Positions 17,298 through 23,444 of a DNA stretch of 64,000 nt are shown here, piece after piece. Position 1 is the stretch's first letter, and every line of letters begins with the position of its first letter. Source of the DNA: Archaeoglobi archaeon JdFR-42. Lineage in GTDB: Archaea; Halobacteriota; Archaeoglobi; Archaeoglobales; JdFR-42. Location: contig MTND01000027.1 of assembly GCA_002010305.1 (NCBI GenBank), positions 50,514 to 114,513 on the forward strand. The letters run 5' to 3'. A program made the translations under genes and the position numbers. Under the pieces are notes generated by a model, which was given only the letters and a program-made list of their open reading frames with translations, was not told the origin of the DNA and made no database searches.

Positions 17298-18461
17298 TTA
17301 TCTGAGCTCGTCCCACCGTCCTCTGCCTCCACCACCTCTCTGTATCAGAACCAGAATCAAGACTATCACTACGACTATCACTCCAATACCAACCCCTCCA
17401 ATTAGAAGCATAAGTTTTCTCTGTTTGGCCGCTTCTTCCTGCAATCGCTTTTGTTCCTCTTCTTTCTTCTTTTCCTCTTCTTGTTTTTTCTTGATTATGT
17501 CGTCTCTGAGTTTTATTGCTTCAGCTTTTATGGTATCAGAACCACTTATCGCTTTCTCAGCAAGCTCCTTTGCCTTGTTGTAATTACCTGCATCATACTG
17601 CTCTTGTGCATCGTCCACTTTGGATTTTATATCGTCCAGCAAGAATTTAAGAGTGGTTATAGAAGCACCTTCCCGTTCTGCCTCTAAAAGGGCTGTAGTG
17701 GCACTTTGAATTGACTCATCCGCTTTATCTATGGCATATTTTGCCATTGCTTTTTCAGCCTCTGTTGTCGCCTCACTTACTTTGTTTTCAGCCTCTTCAA
17801 TTTTTTGACTGGCAATGTCATAATCTCCAGCTTTTTTTGCGTTTACAGCCTCTTCTCTGAGATCCTTGGCCTCTTTAATGACCTCTTCAGCTTTTGTCAC
17901 ATCTGCACCATAATCTTTAGCGCCATCTATAACGATCTCAGCATTTGCAATATCGTCATCTAGGTTTGATATTTTGCTATCAAACAGTCCTGGATTAACA
18001 GCCTTAACGATTATGGGGTCAAGGAGATCTTCCTGACTATCTATCACGAATTTGACTAGTGTTATATTCTTAGTAAAAGACGCTACTGCAGGGACTTTCC
18101 CTGTCAATGTGAACTCAATACTTGAAATCCCATCATTAGTGTACCCAATTTCATCTGACAAAAAGCTTTCACTACTCTCGATAGGTCTTGAACCTCCTAT
18201 CTCTAGATTAATAGAGCCCACCCACTGGGCATTTTCCAGATCGGTAATGAAAGTAATAGGAGTTTTCCGTTTAGCGAGAACAGATGGCGGATCGGGATAT
18301 ATTGTCACTTTAACCTGTACAGTCTCACCTTCCTGATAAAAATCCTTAGATGGTATCAAAATAGTGGTCACTTTAAAATCATCAGCTTTCAGTCCATTTA
18401 CTGGAAGGACAGAAAGCAACAAAATTAACAGCAAAATACCTGTTCTAACTCTCATTTCCAT
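17298..18461 (-). CDS. Signal-peptide, coiled-coil, C-terminally TM-anchored envelope protein (unknown family)
   Basis: N-terminal RTGILLLILLLSVLPVNG, then a beta-rich ~150 aa region. Helical repeats follow with recurring AGDYD.A / AGNYNKA motifs, then a KE-rich stalk, the TM LMLLIGGVGIGVIVVVIVLILVLI and the tail QRGGGGRGRWDELR. Confidence 0.6.
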   Translation of the reverse strand: MEMRVRTGILLLILLLSVLPVNGLKADDFKVTTILIPSKDFYQEGETVQVKVTIYPDPPSVLAKRKTPITFITDLENAQWVGSINLEIGGSRPIESSESFLSDEIGYTNDGISSIEFTLTGKVPAVASFTKNITLVKFVIDSQEDLLDPIIVKAVNPGLFDSKISNLDDDIANAEIVIDGAKDYGADVTKAEEVIKEAKDLREEAVNAKKAGDYDIASQKIEEAENKVSEATTEAEKAMAKYAIDKADESIQSATTALLEAEREGASITTLKFLLDDIKSKVDDAQEQYDAGNYNKAKELAEKAISGSDTIKAEAIKLRDDIIKKKQEEEKKKEEEQKRLQEEAAKQRKLMLLIGGVGIGVIVVVIVLILVLIQRGGGGRGRWDELR

Positions 18462-18472
18462 CCCCTCCTCCT

Positions 18473-19624
18473 TTAAAATAATGGCTCAATATCTTCATCA
18501 AATAATTGCATCTTTCTCTCTTCTCTAATCTTTTCAGCCTCCTTAATACCTTCTTTCGCTTCTGAAGCTATTTTTTGAAGTTCTTTCACTCTCGGGACTT
18601 CAGTTACGTTTGCAAGAAGCACTACAGAGGCTATATACTTACTCCTTGTGGGGTAATCTCCAGCTCTGACTTCAACTCCGTTAATGTTACCTTCAAGCCA
18701 GCTCTTGGCTTTTTCAATTCCCTTTCTATCCAGATATTCGTGAGGACCTGCCACTAGAATTAAGGCTCTCTCAGCACTATGTATCTCACAAGGGATTGTT
18801 AATCGACCCAATGCAGCACGTCTAACGAGGGACGCAATCTTGGTGGCTGTATCACTCTCAAAGGCCTCTTCTTTTTCTCTGGAGAAAAAACTTCGTTTTT
18901 TCCGATTCTCTGCTATATAAGCAGCATATCCAATGGATGAAATTCCACCGCCCCTAAGGGTGTTTATGATTTCTGAGCTATCCACTACCATTTCTCCTAT
19001 CTGATCGATGTCGGATCCTTCTCCGGATCTGAAGAGGATTCCAAGCCTCCGGACGATCTCTTCGTTAATCTTTCTGTATGAGTCCCTGAGTGAGATCCCT
19101 TCATATTTCCAGGCTCCATTATCAAATAAAATTAAATTATCGGTTTCTTTAACCAGTGTCACCATTGAGCGAGCAGCATTGAGGGAGTAAAGGGAGCCTT
19201 CTTCTGGAGCTGGAAGAACTCCGAAGGCGTAAACCGGTTCAGAATACATTTTTGAAAGATAGTGCGCCAGAACAGGAGCTCCACCAGAGCCTGTTCCACC
19301 ACCCAGACCTGCAATAATTAGAAATGCATCAACATCGTGAGTTCCCATATTGTCTATTTCACTTAGAATAGTCTCTATCTCTTCCCGGGTAATTTTGGCA
19401 CCCATGGCATTATCAGTTCCCACACCATGTCCCTTGACGTAGGTCTGCCCTATGAGTATTCTATGTCTCATCGGAACATTTTTCAGCCCGAGGAGGTCTG
19501 TTCTTGCTGTGTTCACTGCTAGAGCTTGCATCTTGGTTTTATGGGTTGTTCGTTTCTCATGCTCAAGGAACAGATCCAGTATTTTGCCACCTGCTTGTCC
19601 AAAGCCAATTGCGAATACTCTCAT
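18473..19624 (-). CDS. cetZ: CetZ-like tubulin/FtsZ-superfamily GTPase
   Basis: T1 GFGQAGGK, T4 signature GLGGGTGSGGAP, VVDSSEIINTL (T7-like), acidic C-terminal tail DEDIEPLF. GGAG lies 8 nt upstream of the ATG. Confidence 0.85.
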   Translation of the reverse strand: MRVFAIGFGQAGGKILDLFLEHEKRTTHKTKMQALAVNTARTDLLGLKNVPMRHRILIGQTYVKGHGVGTDNAMGAKITREEIETILSEIDNMGTHDVDAFLIIAGLGGGTGSGGAPVLAHYLSKMYSEPVYAFGVLPAPEEGSLYSLNAARSMVTLVKETDNLILFDNGAWKYEGISLRDSYRKINEEIVRRLGILFRSGEGSDIDQIGEMVVDSSEIINTLRGGGISSIGYAAYIAENRKKRSFFSREKEEAFESDTATKIASLVRRAALGRLTIPCEIHSAERALILVAGPHEYLDRKGIEKAKSWLEGNINGVEVRAGDYPTRSKYIASVVLLANVTEVPRVKELQKIASEAKEGIKEAEKIREERKMQLFDEDIEPLF

Positions 19625-19680
19625 GTTAGATCTCCGTTGATTGTTGTTAGGTATTGATATTTAACTTTTTGGAACTTCTA

Positions 19681-19731
19681 TTGACAAAGTTATAAAGCTA
19701 TGCTTTACGAATTGTTATCTGTAACTGACAA
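19681..19731. repeat. Composite palindromic element, subfamily II (order P1-P2 on + strand)
   Basis: P1 at 19690-19710 is TTATAAAGC-TAT-GCTTTACGA. P2 at 19712-19731 is TTGTTATCTGTAACTGACAA. An extra TTGACAA half-site lies at 19681-19687. Confidence 0.75.
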
Positions 19732-19771: not shown

Positions 19772-20791
19772 TCATGCAAAGTCTTCAAGGGAGAGTCCTT
19801 TAATACCCGAGAACATAACCACTACTGACAGGTATTTCGATTTAGGGATAGGAAAATCGCCCCATCGAACCTCAGCCATTGGAGCTAGATCTTCTAGAGT
19901 TGTAATACATCCAAAAAATCCGTCCATGGTTATCTCCATTGGAGGACCGGTTATGATAATTAAAACACTACGTGCAGATTTGAAATCAGATCTTACACTG
20001 AGGTTATCATAAATGGCCTCTTTCATGAGTTCCAAGACTCTAGAGGTTTTGTATCCTGCAACATCCTTTTTTCGTCTGGAGAAAATTCGATCAAGGATGC
20101 TCCGGGGGATCTTTTTCCTTGCCACTCCCACTGCTGAGATCCCTCCTTTCTTAAGAGTATTGAAGAAATCTGATGTATCAATAACAACTTCAGAATGATC
20201 TTTTCGTTTGTATTCACTTTCTCCTACCACAGCAAACAGATTCATCAAATTAACGATTTTCATATTGATTTTTTTAAAATCCTCAAAAGAGGTTGCGGGT
20301 CTACCTTCCACTATGTTTTCAAAAAGAATGAGAGTATCCACCGCCTTTCCTGTATTCTGGATTTTGGAAGGAATTTTTTTAATAAAGAAATCGGGAGTAT
20401 CGATAGAAGGTACAACACCTATGGAAAACACAGGCTCTTCAAAAATCTCTTTCAATTTTTTAGCCAGTTTTTCTGCGATTATTGTTCCAAAATCACTTTC
20501 AAGGCTTAAAATTATCAAAAACGCATCGATGGGCTCCCTCTCTTCTGATAAAATATTTACAAGGGATATTAGGTCCTTTTTTTCGAGGAGATCTGTTTCC
20601 GATATGAATCCAGAAGGTATATGAAATTTCCTCTCTACAGGTACATTTTTAAGGCTTCTGAGGTGATTAATGTCGTTGTCTATCAGAAAACATCTGAACA
20701 AAGTATTCTCAGGACTTCTGATCCCCTCTTTTTGAAGGAGGTCGGCTATATTGCACCCAGCTCCACCACATCCTATGGCAAGAACTCTCAT
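19772..20791 (-). CDS. Divergent tubulin/CetZ-like paralog lacking the GGGTGSG nucleotide-binding signature
   Basis: Aligns without gaps to the neighbour around DAFLII. GLGGGTGSGGAPVLA is replaced by SLESDFGTIIAEKLA. T1-like GCGGAGCN and VIDTSDFFNTLKKGGISAVG are retained. Confidence 0.7.
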   Translation of the reverse strand: MRVLAIGCGGAGCNIADLLQKEGIRSPENTLFRCFLIDNDINHLRSLKNVPVERKFHIPSGFISETDLLEKKDLISLVNILSEEREPIDAFLIILSLESDFGTIIAEKLAKKLKEIFEEPVFSIGVVPSIDTPDFFIKKIPSKIQNTGKAVDTLILFENIVEGRPATSFEDFKKINMKIVNLMNLFAVVGESEYKRKDHSEVVIDTSDFFNTLKKGGISAVGVARKKIPRSILDRIFSRRKKDVAGYKTSRVLELMKEAIYDNLSVRSDFKSARSVLIIITGPPMEITMDGFFGCITTLEDLAPMAEVRWGDFPIPKSKYLSVVVMFSGIKGLSLEDFA

Positions 20792-20815: not shown

Positions 20816-20857
20816 TTGTCAATATAAACTGACATTTTGTAAAGCTATACTTTACAA
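20816..20857. repeat. Composite palindromic element, subfamily II (order P2-P1 on + strand)
   Basis: P2 at 20816-20834 is TTGTCAATATAAACTGACA. P1 at 20837-20857 is TTGTAAAGC-TAT-ACTTTACAA. Confidence 0.75.
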
Positions 20858-20950
20858 TAGTGTTGATGTGTATTTATTATAAGTATCTTTACTTGCCGTC
20901 ATACAAATGTAGAGAATTGAACCTATAGAACTCTTCACCTTTTGCAAACC

Positions 20951-22137: not shown

Positions 22138-22178
22138 TTGTAAAGCTATGATTTACAATTGTTAATTTACATTGACAG
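22138..22178. repeat. Composite palindromic element, subfamily II (order P1-P2), filling the convergent apgM/cobT-like spacer
   Basis: P1 at 22138-22158 is TTGTAAAGC-TAT-GATTTACAA. P2 at 22159-22178 is TTGTTAATTTACATTGACAG. Positions 22152-22177 match the reverse complement of the 23322 copy at 25/26. Confidence 0.8.
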
Positions 22179-22180
22179 AT

Positions 22181-23248
22181 CTAACGCTGGAGACCTTTTT
22201 CAATTACTGCAGTATACTCTTTTTCAATTTGTTTCAATACAGTATTGCCGTCTAGTCCAGATAACAGGGCCAAAAGGACTGAGCCACCTGCACCGACCCC
22301 TTCCTTAACAAATCCCTCACTGTAGGCTCTTAATCCTGGTTTTGCAGATGCATCGAGACCGGGGTCAACAGCTACCATAGGCATATCCACTATGGAGGTG
22401 ATATCCGATGATTCATCTTCTGCCACGTATATGGTGGTGGCAAGGATACACCTTTTGAACCCGTCCTTGTCTATACTTTCCAGTAATTTTCCGACAGTTG
22501 CCATTTGCGTCCCTCCAGCCAGGACCACAGGGACGTTAGAGCCTTTCACAAGCCCAATGGTTGCTACCATCATGGGATCTCCGAATTTTACAAGAGCTTC
22601 CATGGGATCAGTATCTCCTGGCTGAAGATTCTCTCTTTTGAGAGCATCTGCCACAACTCTCTTTTTCAAGTCAGTAGGGTTCTCAGGCATGCTACTGGAG
22701 ACAAAGGACTCAACACCGAGTGCCCTTAATACAGCCAGAGCCGTGGTTGTCCCTCCAGGAATGCTCTCGCCGATCACAAGGAAATCGCATATTTTTGAAA
22801 ACTCTTTTCCGAGGATCTCTGATCTTTCCATACTCTCTCTAACAACTTCATGATCCATTGCACTTTTCTCAGAAATGTTATTTCCAGGGGGCATCTCTAG
22901 TGTTAGATATGGAATCTTGGGTTTGATGATACATCCTGATTCAACTACAAAGAATGGCGTCTTCGTTGTTCTCAACATAGAATATGTCATCAATGCTGGA
23001 GTTGGTTTACCATCCGGAGTAGCTGGGACACCAGGTATAGATTTACATTTTCCGTAATACAGTAACTCAGCATCAGCAGGAGGGGTGTATTTGATTAAAT
23101 CAGGGTTCTCTCCCGCTACGGTAATCCCAGGAATCTCAGCTGTCATTGTATTGGATATAACCGCTATAAAAAGAGGTCTTTTCTCTGATAATGTCTCAAT
23201 AATCTTTTTTCCTTCTTGACTTTTCTGGATAAATCTTACTTCTTGCAT
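22181..23248 (-). CDS. UPF0284/TIGR00303-like protein (archaeal CobT-type phosphoribosyltransferase candidate)
   Basis: ISNTMTAEIPGITVAGENP and GESIPGGTTTA blocks. I prefer the ATG at 23248; the track TTG start at 23341 runs into the palindromic element. Confidence 0.55.
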   Translation of the reverse strand: MQEVRFIQKSQEGKKIIETLSEKRPLFIAVISNTMTAEIPGITVAGENPDLIKYTPPADAELLYYGKCKSIPGVPATPDGKPTPALMTYSMLRTTKTPFFVVESGCIIKPKIPYLTLEMPPGNNISEKSAMDHEVVRESMERSEILGKEFSKICDFLVIGESIPGGTTTALAVLRALGVESFVSSSMPENPTDLKKRVVADALKRENLQPGDTDPMEALVKFGDPMMVATIGLVKGSNVPVVLAGGTQMATVGKLLESIDKDGFKRCILATTIYVAEDESSDITSIVDMPMVAVDPGLDASAKPGLRAYSEGFVKEGVGAGGSVLLALLSGLDGNTVLKQIEKEYTAVIEKGLQR

Positions 23249-23321
23249 GGTGACATGAATAATCAAAAGAATAAAAAAAGTTTTGGGATGTAATACATAT
23301 GTTTTACAAAAGTCCCTAATT

Positions 23322-23362
23322 TTGTCAATGTAAATTGACAATTGTAAAGCTATGCTTCATGA
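23322..23362. repeat. Composite palindromic element, subfamily II (order P2-P1)
   Basis: P2 at 23322-23341 is TTGTCAATGTAAATTGACAA. P1 at 23342-23362 is TTGTAAAGC-TAT-GCTTCATGA (right arm degenerate). Confidence 0.8.
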
Positions 23363-23444
23363 TTTTACTAGCTCTGTTAAAGGGACTATAAATCTATGAT
23401 TTGTCGAGTTATCAACTTTTACAGTCAAATTGGATTTTTGACTT

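What the first reader, a model, noticed from the sequence alone, without database searches (positions are those of the whole stretch)
19772..20791. Tubulin-superfamily paralog with ablated GTP-binding loops but retained T7-like acidic loop, next to a canonical CetZ
Seen: the 339-aa protein aligns without gaps to the neighbouring CetZ-like protein around DAFLII. The tubulin signature GLGGGTGSGGAPVLA becomes SLESDFGTIIAEKLA (nt 20483-20506). The Gly-rich T2/T3 region (KGHGVGTDNAMG) is replaced by an unrelated shorter stretch (IPSGFISETDLL). The N-terminal GCGGAGCN and the block VIDTSDFFNTLKKGGISAVG (versus VVDSSEIINTLRGGGISSIG) are kept. Established: in tubulin/FtsZ the T4 signature binds the nucleotide phosphates, and the T7 acidic residue activates hydrolysis in the next subunit. 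Inference: this could be a nucleotide-free partner, cap or regulator of the adjacent CetZ polymer, an asymmetric pair loosely analogous to alpha/beta specialisation. The gene is also the one bracketed on both sides by P2-facing palindromic elements.
Basis: partly seen in the sequence, partly recalled or inferred. Interest (0 to 1): 0.68.

Follow-up and report, generated by a model that had tools for sequence, protein, structure and literature searches.

The report
GTP-pocket-less CetZ paralog family
Next to a normal archaeal tubulin-like gene (CetZ) lies a conserved sister gene that has lost every loop needed to hold GTP but keeps, perfectly, the loop that triggers GTP hydrolysis in a neighbouring subunit. 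It is therefore most likely a built-in cap or regulator of CetZ filaments, not a filament-former or a dead gene.

Summary
ORF 19772-20791 (-) encodes a 339-aa protein with the full tubulin/FtsZ fold (Pfam CetZ_C 4e-28, Tubulin 3e-9; AF2 pLDDT 85; best PDB matches CetZ1/CetZ2). It is 30% identical to the canonical CetZ immediately downstream.

It is not a decaying copy. It belongs to a monophyletic family of 57 unique sequences, restricted to Archaeoglobi, including cultured Archaeoglobus profundus and Geoglobus acetivorans. The family is under strong purifying selection (dN/dS 0.015-0.09).

Across the family:
- The T3 loop is deleted in 100% of members.
- GGGTGSG is replaced by an acidic D/E-D/E-E-F stretch.
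- The ribose- and base-binding residues are lost.
- The CetZ C-terminal tail is absent.
- The T7 loop (E-V-V-x-D-T-S-D-x-F-N) is 100% invariant, which is more conserved than in real CetZs.

The paralog→CetZ tandem is kept in the window's own clade despite different flanking genes. In Archaeoglobaceae the two genes are unlinked.

Best reading (inferred, not shown): a nucleotide-free subunit that docks its T7 face onto the GTP face of CetZ and caps or regulates the polymer.

Databases label members 'cell division protein'. I found no paper describing the family. I rate it a new variant of a known kind, with moderately high interest.

The parts
19772..20791 (-). CDS of the 339-aa CetZ-derived paralog without a GTP pocket (the finding)
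   Evidence: ORF. Pfam CetZ_C and Tubulin. AF2 model pLDDT 85, pTM 0.85. Foldseek top hits are CetZ1 4B46 and CetZ2 4B45. 57-member family.
20750..20773 (-). T1-like GCGGAGCN (G7-x-G9-x-x-G12 retained)
   Evidence: G7, G9 and G12 are 98-100% conserved in the family. The canonical Q10, A11 and K14 are replaced. Coordinates verified.
20585..20620 (-). IPSGFISETDLL, the stretch that replaces the T2/T3 region (KGHGVGTD lost)
   Evidence: Canonical columns V63-D71 are gaps in 100% of family members. AF2 confidence is low here (block 61-70, pLDDT 56).
20471..20506 (-). Degenerate T4: SLESDFGTIIAE in place of GLGGGTGSGGAP
   Evidence: The canonical G108, G109, G110, T111 and G112 are 100% invariant. 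The family has D/E, D/E, E/D, F and G/D at these positions. Column entropy is 1.6-2.0, against 0.83-0.96 in canonical CetZ.
20153..20194 (-). T7 loop SEVVIDTSDFFNTL, with acidic D205 and D208
   Evidence: E201, V203, D205, T206, S207, D208 and N211 are 100% invariant in 57 sequences. This is the most conserved block of the protein (entropy 0.36). D208 aligns with CetZ E218.
19919..19945 (-). Family-specific invariant motif PPMEITMDG (S8 to H10 junction)
   Evidence: P284, E286, I287, T288, M289, D290 and G291 are at least 90% conserved. It is the second most conserved block (entropy 0.59). Canonical CetZ has P-x-E-Y-L-D-R-K-G here. Its placement on the T7-side face is inferred from general knowledge of tubulin/FtsZ structures.
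18473..19624 (-). Canonical CetZ (383 aa) with intact GGGTGSG, T3, T7 and a C-terminal tail; the proposed partner
   Evidence: Pfam. It is 70-74% identical to CetZs of A. fulgidus, A. veneficus, A. profundus and Geoglobus.
19658..19678 (-). BRE/TATA-like element GAAGTTCCAAAAAGTTAAATA upstream of CetZ; CetZ appears to have its own promoter
   Evidence: Conserved with one mismatch at the same place upstream of CetZ in L030. Promoter function is inferred.
19690..19711 (.). 22-nt near-palindromic repeat, copy 1 (between the paralog and CetZ)
20837..20858 (.). 22-nt near-palindromic repeat, copy 2 (46-67 nt upstream of the paralog ATG, just upstream of a TTTATATT box)
17298..18461 (-). 387-aa signal-peptide, coiled-coil, single-TM protein. 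It starts 11 nt after CetZ and ends in RWDELR
   Evidence: ORF. No Pfam family. Homologues follow CetZ in L029, L030 and A. profundus (27% identity, E 4e-16, same C-terminal RWDEL[RK]).

Best explanation
The gene encodes a member of a conserved, Archaeoglobi-restricted offshoot of the CetZ branch of the tubulin/FtsZ superfamily.

The protein keeps the two-domain fold. Its nucleotide pocket has been dismantled: T3 is deleted, the T4 glycines are replaced by acidic residues, and the ribose and base contacts are lost. Its C-terminal tail has been dropped. Its T7 ('bottom') polymerisation and GTPase-activating face is under very strong constraint.

Most likely mechanism (inferred):
- It cannot bind GTP.
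- It cannot offer a normal 'top' face to a further subunit.
- It can insert its T7 loop into the GTP site exposed on a canonical CetZ subunit or at the nucleotide-exposing end of a CetZ filament.
- There it would complete the catalytic site and block further addition at that end. It would thus act as a one-sided cap and GTPase-activating regulator of CetZ polymer length and turnover.

In the window's lineage it sits directly upstream of cetZ, but apparently with a separate promoter. In other Archaeoglobi it would act in trans from another locus.
For: Shown:
- Fold and family. Pfam CetZ_C and Tubulin. The profile hits only CetZ1 and CetZ2 in the PDB. AF2 pLDDT 85, with Foldseek top hits 4B46 and 4B45.
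- Family. 26 genome loci, 34 clusters at 90% identity, and about 5 clusters at 50% identity among 1.84 billion representatives. NJ bootstrap for monophyly is 100.
- Selection. dN/dS is 0.015-0.09 in 12 pairs.
- Pocket loss at family level, with T7 100% invariant.
- Constraint has moved from T4/T1 to T7 and PEEITMDG.
- No C-terminal tail in any member.
- The paralog→CetZ tandem is kept in L029 and L030 with different flanks.
- Genomes that hold the paralog also hold a canonical CetZ: A. profundus and G. acetivorans.
- The T7 motif is of the CetZ type (VVDSSE-like), not the FtsZ type.

Precedent: CetZ paralogs modulate each other's assembly in Haloferax (PMC13556191).
Against: - There is no direct evidence of binding to CetZ.
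- The gene is unlinked to cetZ in most family members.
- Distribution is patchy. No member was found for A. fulgidus, A. veneficus or Ferroglobus, so the function is dispensable.
- The T1 G-x-G-x-x-G is retained, and in the window clade so are the T6 and H7 Asn residues. A residual ligand site therefore cannot be excluded.
- The AF2 model gives no ligand information.
- Several N-domain residues are family-specific and conserved: G23, L31, F32, F56, N79, E86. They could form a new interface that I cannot assign.
Confidence: 0.5

Rival explanations
1. Obligate heterodimer or alternating co-polymer with CetZ, like alpha/beta-tubulin. The paralog's remodelled top face binds the CetZ T7 face permanently without nucleotide. 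The CetZ-GTP to paralog-T7 interface is the dynamic, hydrolysing one.
For: Tandem genes in the window clade. T7 is retained and the pocket is lost. Some family-specific conserved N-domain residues exist.
Against: The elements that make the top face are deleted or variable within the family: T3 is absent, and the T5 and former-T3 blocks have entropy 2.5-2.7. The H6 region is deleted in Archaeoglobaceae members. The genes are unlinked in most genomes. CetZ has a separate conserved promoter-like element. CetZ stays 70-88% identical whether or not the paralog is adjacent.
Confidence: 0.15
2. An adaptor or scaffold that no longer acts on CetZ. The conserved T7-side surface binds another partner, such as FtsZ1/2, SepF or a membrane protein, or serves an unrelated role.
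For: The gene is not linked to cetZ in most genomes, and neighbours differ between subclades: SpoIIM/Alba, or two M24 peptidases. Distribution is patchy.
Against: The invariant residues are exactly the catalytic and contact residues of the tubulin-superfamily T7 loop, and they are of the CetZ type. No conserved operon partner was found in 27 loci. The only recurrent same-strand neighbour is CetZ itself.
Confidence: 0.2
3. A nucleotide-independent homopolymer, i.e. a static filament.
For: The full two-domain fold is retained.
Against: A homopolymer needs both longitudinal faces conserved. Only the T7 side is. The acidic T4 replacement would face the acidic T7 of the next subunit.
Confidence: 0.08
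4. A decaying duplicate of cetZ (pseudogene-like).
For: Loss of all GTP-binding motifs.
Against: Intact ORFs in 57 unique sequences. dN/dS is 0.015-0.09. Seven T7 positions are 100% invariant. The AF2 fold is confident.
Confidence: 0.01

Closest known systems
CetZ family (Haloferax volcanii CetZ1/CetZ2, PDB 4B46/4B45; Pfam PF00091 + PF21011)
   Same: Same two-domain fold. CetZ_C domain. CetZ-type T7 loop with the acidic residue equivalent to CetZ1 E218. Archaeal (Archaeoglobi) host that also carries canonical CetZ.
   Different: No tubulin signature GGGTGSG. T3 loop deleted. T5, T6 and H7 nucleotide contacts lost. No C-terminal tail. 301-339 aa instead of about 385-395. Conservation is concentrated on the T7 face instead of the pocket.
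Long CetZ-like proteins of Methanomicrobiales (P0012-P0050; 500-950 aa; named 'tubulin/FtsZ family protein', Methanoregula/Methanomicrobium)
   Same: Same T1-H1 motif (GGAGC[RN]IA). Same loss of the KGHGVGTD T3 loop. T4 degenerate. They group with the family in 84 of 100 NJ bootstraps.
   Different: They keep half of T4 (G[LA]GG[ST][LM]) and the T6 FDNE(T)W motif. Their T7 is VLDSGE. They carry a long, low-complexity C-terminal extension. They are also uncharacterised.
ARC3 of plant chloroplasts (FtsZ-like domain protein that directly inhibits FtsZ-ring assembly)
   Same: A tubulin-superfamily-derived protein used as a regulator of the polymer formed by its GTPase relatives (abstract of bioRxiv 10.1101/2024.01.08.574726; domain scheme in PMC12232670). 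That its FtsZ-like domain lacks GTPase motifs is from my own knowledge and was not checked here.
   Different: Eukaryotic organelle protein fused to middle and MORN domains. Derived from FtsZ, not CetZ. No evidence that it works through a retained T7 loop.
One-sided FtsZ cappers: engineered interface mutants, and SulA/MciZ, which block the T7 face (SulA:FtsZ PDB 1OFU)
   Same: The concept is the same: a molecule able to use only one longitudinal interface terminates or sequesters the polymer. 1OFU appears among the fold hits as FtsZ. The mechanisms are from my own knowledge.
   Different: SulA and MciZ are unrelated folds that bind the T7 side of FtsZ. Here the proposed cap is itself a tubulin-fold subunit that would bind the opposite, nucleotide-bearing side.
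Alpha/beta-tubulin division of labour
   Same: Two paralogous subunits with unequal nucleotide chemistry; one donates the catalytic T7 residue to the other's GTP (established knowledge).
   Different: Alpha-tubulin still binds GTP structurally and both of its faces are used. Here the pocket is gone and the top face is eroded.

Membership tests
Tubulin/FtsZ superfamily | Two-domain tubulin/FtsZ fold (Rossmann-like N domain, H7, C domain) | tested here: met
   AF2 pLDDT 85, pTM 0.85. Foldseek E 3e-25 to 4B46, with TM 0.75-0.78, and hundreds of FtsZ hits. Pfam PF00091 scores 37.7 bits against a cut-off of 33.
Tubulin/FtsZ superfamily | Tubulin signature motif G-G-G-T-G-[ST]-G (T4) and GTP binding | tested here: not met
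   The window protein has ESDFGTI. The family has D/E-D/E-E/D-F-G/D, with 0% Gly at the first three positions, against 100% in 147 canonical CetZs. Actual binding cannot be tested with these tools.
Tubulin/FtsZ superfamily | T7 loop with acidic catalytic residue | tested here: met
   D205 and D208 are 100% invariant. D208 aligns with CetZ E218.
CetZ family | CetZ-type C-terminal domain (Pfam PF21011) | tested here: met
   4.2e-28, 98.5 bits against a cut-off of 21.6. PF21011 is precomputed for all family members.
CetZ family | Conserved nucleotide-site residues of CetZ: T1 GxGQAGGK, T3 KGHGVG, T5 P-x-EEG, T6 DN, H7 N | tested here: not met
   Only G7, G9 and G12 are kept. T3 is deleted. The T5 EE pair is deleted in 84-91% of members. 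The T6 DN becomes E-E, and the H7 N becomes E/D. N is kept at both positions only in the window clade.
CetZ family | C-terminal tail after the globular domain | tested here: not met
   All members end within about 10 residues of the last strand. The window CetZ has a tail of about 45 residues ending in DEDIEPLF.
CetZ family | Phylogenetic placement inside the CetZ clade | tested here: inconclusive
   The family is monophyletic on a long branch. It groups with the long Methanomicrobiales CetZ-like proteins (bootstrap 84) rather than with the adjacent CetZ. No FtsZ outgroup was used and only NJ was run. hhalign scores to canonical CetZ and to the long family are equal.
Filament end-cap / GTPase-activating regulator of CetZ (functional class, not a sequence family) | Binds CetZ through the T7 face, stimulates hydrolysis, blocks elongation | not testable with these tools
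   Needs biochemistry or complex prediction.

The most novel reading that the evidence does not exclude
This would be a natural 'T7-only' tubulin-superfamily subunit: a protein that evolved from the polymer's own monomer into a dedicated, nucleotide-free GTPase-activating end-cap. Archaeoglobi would use it to set CetZ filament length and turnover.

The evidence also fits a degeneration series:
1. canonical CetZ;
2. the Methanomicrobiales long form (T3 lost, half of T4 kept);
3. the window clade (T4 lost, base-contact Asn residues kept, still tandem to cetZ);
4. Archaeoglobaceae (everything lost, gene relocated).

This would be the first prokaryotic case of a cytoskeletal pseudo-GTPase regulator derived from the filament subunit itself. 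It would also be a ready-made tool for determining CetZ filament polarity.
Probability: 0.3. Interest if true: 0.8.

Novelty: new variant of a known kind. Interest (0 to 1): 0.6.

Why it matters
CetZ proteins control archaeal cell shape and motility, but no regulator that acts directly on the CetZ polymer interface is known. How CetZ filaments are nucleated, capped or turned over is an open question.

A conserved subunit-derived protein that has only the hydrolysis-activating face would give a concrete, testable regulator. It would also be a natural reagent for defining filament polarity.

It is also a clean evolutionary example of a cytoskeletal GTPase becoming a pseudo-enzyme while one interface stays under very strong selection.

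Two cultured hosts carry the family: A. profundus DSM 5631 and G. acetivorans. The proteins can therefore be cloned and tested directly.

Tried and rejected
1. I first concluded from tblastn of 26 GTDB loci that no family member lies next to a CetZ, and that L001 has a membrane ORF downstream instead. This was wrong for the window's clade. L001 simply ends before cetZ, and the longer contigs L029 and L030 show paralog → (53-aa ORF) → CetZ.

2. A Rossmann-type NAD/FAD site was suggested by the weak ThiF hit (E 0.053, residues 2-25) and by GxGxxG followed by an Asp at the end of beta-2. I rejected it because D38 is present in only 10% of the family.

3. The 385-aa gene that follows the paralog in L003 and L005-L007 was tested as a possible homologue of the window's membrane protein. 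It is unrelated (E 0.87) and looks like a secreted nuclease-type lipoprotein.

4. I looked for a conserved operon partner across 27 loci and found none.

5. The first AF2 run, with 6 sequences, gave pLDDT 65 and was discarded. I used the 35-sequence run instead.

6. The palindrome as a conserved regulator site: it is absent from L030, so it is lineage-specific.

7. Origin by recent tandem duplication of the adjacent cetZ is not supported. The tandem pair is only 30% identical, and the family groups with the long Methanomicrobiales proteins. The question remains unresolved.

8. Literature searches for a described GTP-less CetZ or FtsZ paralog in archaea found none. Brown & Duggin 2023 did not sample A. 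profundus or Geoglobus.

Full report
**1. The observation**

ORF 19772-20791 on the minus strand (ATG start, 339 aa) lies 147 nt upstream of ORF 18473-19624 (383 aa) on the same strand.
- The two products are 30% identical over 342 columns (E 7e-38). They align without gaps across IDAFLIILSLESDFGTIIAEKLA / VDAFLIIAGLGGGTGSGGAPVLA.
- Pfam places both in CetZ_C (PF21011) plus Tubulin (PF00091). The downstream gene scores strongly (8e-69, 4e-30). The finding scores more weakly but above threshold (4e-28; 37.7 bits against a cut-off of 33).
- NCBIfam has no model for the finding.
D208 of the paralog aligns with E218 of CetZ, the residue mutated in the published GTPase-dead CetZ1.E218A.

**2. It is a family, not an accident**

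Searches found relatives at several levels:
- A word-indexed search found five relatives at 36-98% identity.
- A scan of one genome per GTDB species found 26 loci, nearly all Archaeoglobaceae or Archaeoglobales MAGs.
- A profile search found 34 clusters at 90% identity. Source names include 'cell division protein', 'FtsZ/tubulin family protein [Archaeoglobus profundus]' and, through cluster look-up, 'GTPase domain protein [Geoglobus acetivorans]'.
- An exhaustive HMMER scan of 1.84 billion representatives found only about five clusters at 50% identity above 220 bits. A score gap then separates these from canonical CetZs and a set of long CetZ-like proteins.

All 25 complete locus-derived genes are intact ORFs of 301-328 aa starting M-[KR]-x-L-T-[IV]-G. 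Pairwise dN/dS is 0.015-0.09. This includes pairs with unsaturated dS: L015/L016 (dS 0.14, ω 0.06) and L015/L017 (dS 0.49, ω 0.06). The pseudogene reading is excluded.

**3. Anatomy at family level**

I aligned 57 unique family sequences with 147 canonical CetZs.

| Element | Canonical CetZ | Family |
|---|---|---|
| T1 | GxGQAGGK | G-x-G-x-x-G kept (98-100%); Q10, A11, K14 replaced, mostly by K/R at positions 10-11 outside the window clade |
| T3 | V-K-G-H-G-V-G-T-D | gap in 100% of members |
| T4 | G-G-G-T-G-S-G, 100% invariant | D/E-D/E-E/D-F-(G/D), no glycine at the first three positions |
| T5 | E141, E142 | deleted in 84-91% |
| T6 | D168-N169 (99%) | E-E; Asn kept only in the window clade |
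| H7 | N187 (99%) | E/D; Asn in 19% |
| T7 | 87-98% at the same columns | E201, V203, D205, T206, S207, D208, N211 all 100% invariant |

Column entropy shows that the constraint has moved.
- In canonical CetZ the most conserved blocks are T4 (0.83-0.96), T6 and T1.
- In the family they are T7 (0.36) and the family-specific TGPPMEITMD (0.59). The T4 region is relaxed (1.6-2.0).
- The former T3 and T5 regions are the most variable in the family (2.5-2.7).

No member has the C-terminal tail that follows the globular domain in CetZ. Archaeoglobaceae members additionally lack about 13 residues of the T6-H6 region, which the window clade keeps.

The AF2 model built on a 35-sequence alignment is confident (pLDDT 85, pTM 0.85). 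It has the complete tubulin/FtsZ secondary-structure order. Its best structural matches are CetZ1 (4B46, E 3e-25) and CetZ2 (4B45), followed by FtsZs. A sequence profile against the PDB finds only those two CetZ entries.

**4. Context**

The window is a metagenomic contig (JGI 3300037583; also SRR3723048). Its canonical CetZ is 70-74% identical to CetZs of cultured Archaeoglobus and Geoglobus. The host is therefore an Archaeoglobi-related archaeon of about 40% GC.

In the nearest lineage, CetZ is 88% identical and the paralog 56% identical. The same order, paralog → CetZ → membrane protein, is found on two independent contigs, L029 and L030. The surrounding genes differ: Na/Ca exchanger, SUI1, SIR2 and RuBisCO there, against apgM, cobT-like and mdh here. 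The block therefore moves as a unit.

I had first read L001 as lacking the tandem. That contig simply ends before cetZ.

In the rest of the family the genes are unlinked:
- In A. profundus the paralog is at about 0.34 Mb and CetZ at about 1.21 Mb.
- In G. acetivorans the paralog sits between a NUDIX gene and two M24 peptidases.
- None of the other 24 loci has a CetZ within 10 kb.
- No other neighbour is conserved across subclades.

The spacer between the paralog and CetZ holds a BRE/TATA-like element, GAAGTTCCAAAAAGTTAAATA. It is conserved upstream of CetZ in L030. CetZ therefore probably has its own promoter.

**5. Origin**

- NJ trees with 100 bootstraps give family monophyly 100 and an Archaeoglobaceae subclade 95. 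The window clade is thus the sister lineage and the least reduced form.
- The family groups at 84 with a large set of 500-950-aa CetZ-like proteins from Methanomicrobiales. These share the GGAGC[RN]IA T1-H1 motif and the T3 deletion, but they keep half of T4 and the T6 motif.
- Profile-profile scores to canonical CetZ and to the long family are equal.

A graded loss series is plausible. It is not proven, because there is no FtsZ outgroup, only NJ was run, and the branches are long. A recent duplication of the adjacent cetZ is not supported.

**6. Mechanism**

Shown:
- The fold is kept.
- The pocket-lining motifs are gone.
- T7 is invariant.
- There is no tail.
- Selection is purifying.
- The tandem is specific to the window clade.

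Established knowledge of the tubulin superfamily:
- T1-T6 and H7 of one subunit hold the nucleotide.
- The T7 loop of the next subunit inserts an acidic residue that activates hydrolysis.
- Both faces are needed to propagate a protofilament.

Inference: a protein with only a working T7 face can occupy the nucleotide-exposing face of a CetZ monomer or filament end. It cannot be extended further. It would therefore act as a cap and possibly as a GTPase activator. The T7 motif is of the CetZ type rather than the FtsZ type, and canonical CetZ co-occurs in the same genomes. Both points favour CetZ as the target.

Cross-regulation between CetZ paralogs has a precedent in Haloferax (PMC13556191).

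An alpha/beta-like alternating polymer is less likely, because the face it would require is eroded and variable. I give the cap/regulator reading about 0.5. Most of the remainder goes to a different partner (0.2) or a heterodimer (0.15).

**7. Literature and novelty**

- The CetZ survey of Brown & Duggin (PMC9856176) lists four tubulin-superfamily proteins each for A. fulgidus and A. veneficus. It did not sample A. profundus or Geoglobus.
- Santana-Molina et al. (PMC9871819) mention CetZ-like groups, but no GTP-less Archaeoglobi group came up in the term search of that paper.
- Makarova & Koonin 2010 describe other families.
- I found no paper describing this family.

Members are in public databases under generic names. 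This is therefore a new, uncharacterised variant of a known kind, not a new kind of system.

**8. Verdict**

- Novelty: new variant of a known kind.
- Interest: 0.6.

Noticed in passing
window 19690-19711, 20837-20858, 22138-22159, 23342-23363: A 22-nt near-palindrome (consensus TTGTAAAGCTATGCTTTACAAT) occurs once in each of four consecutive intergenic regions: paralog/CetZ, apgM/paralog, apgM/cobT-like (between convergent 3' ends), and cobT-like/mdh. All copies are in the same orientation. There are 4 matches against 0 expected, and none elsewhere in the 64 kb. It is absent from the related locus L030. It could be a regulator site or a small intergenic repeat; this is unresolved.
   Followed up: partly
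window 17298-18461 (-); L029 7174-8486; L030 4367-4867; L033 6171-7424: A protein of about 390-420 aa starts 10-22 nt after canonical cetZ in the window, L029, L030 and A. profundus. It has a signal peptide, an extracellular domain, a long coiled coil, one C-terminal TM helix and a short cytoplasmic tail ending in RWDEL[RK]. The A. profundus homologue is 27% identical (E 4e-16). It matches no Pfam family. It is absent after cetZ in A. fulgidus and G. acetivorans. It is a candidate membrane partner of CetZ.
   Followed up: partly
proteins P0012-P0050 etc. (exhaustive search): A large set of 500-950-aa CetZ-like proteins is named for Methanoregula and Methanomicrobium MAGs. They have the T3 loop deleted, a half-degenerate T4 (G[LA]GG[ST][LM] instead of GGGTGSG), a retained FDNE(T)W motif and VLDSGE T7, and long low-complexity C-terminal extensions. 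They appear uncharacterised and may be the nearest relatives of the family (bootstrap 84).
   Followed up: partly
window 19658-19678 (-); L030 3141-3161: A BRE/TATA-like element, GAA[GC]TTCCAAAAAGTTAAATA, lies about 35-55 nt upstream of the cetZ ATG. It is conserved between the two lineages although the rest of the spacer is not.
   Followed up: partly
L001 5155-5382; L030 2961-3122; L029 5661-5822: In the sister lineage a small hydrophobic ORF of about 53 aa (MNTKYVGA...) lies between the paralog and cetZ. The window has no equivalent ORF in its 147-nt spacer.
   Followed up: no
window 22181-23341 (-): The mechanical ORF for the cobT-like (DBI_PRT) gene starts at TTG. Its first 31 residues look non-native (MSIYIDKIRDFCKTYVLHPKTFFILLIIHVT). 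The real start is probably M32 (MQEVRF...), which would put repeat copy 4 about 95-115 nt upstream of the start. This was judged by eye only.
   Followed up: no
L033 8225-8596 (A. profundus CP001857): A SepF gene lies about 2 kb downstream of canonical cetZ on the same strand in A. profundus, after the membrane protein and a flavoprotein gene. In A. fulgidus the flavoprotein gene directly follows cetZ.
   Followed up: no
L013-L025, L031, L032 (for example L031 8896-9450): In one Archaeoglobaceae subclade the paralog's 3' end overlaps a convergent SpoIIM-family membrane protein gene by a few bases. An Alba gene follows, and the PolD small-subunit gene lies upstream. This is probably plain local synteny among close relatives.
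   Followed up: partly
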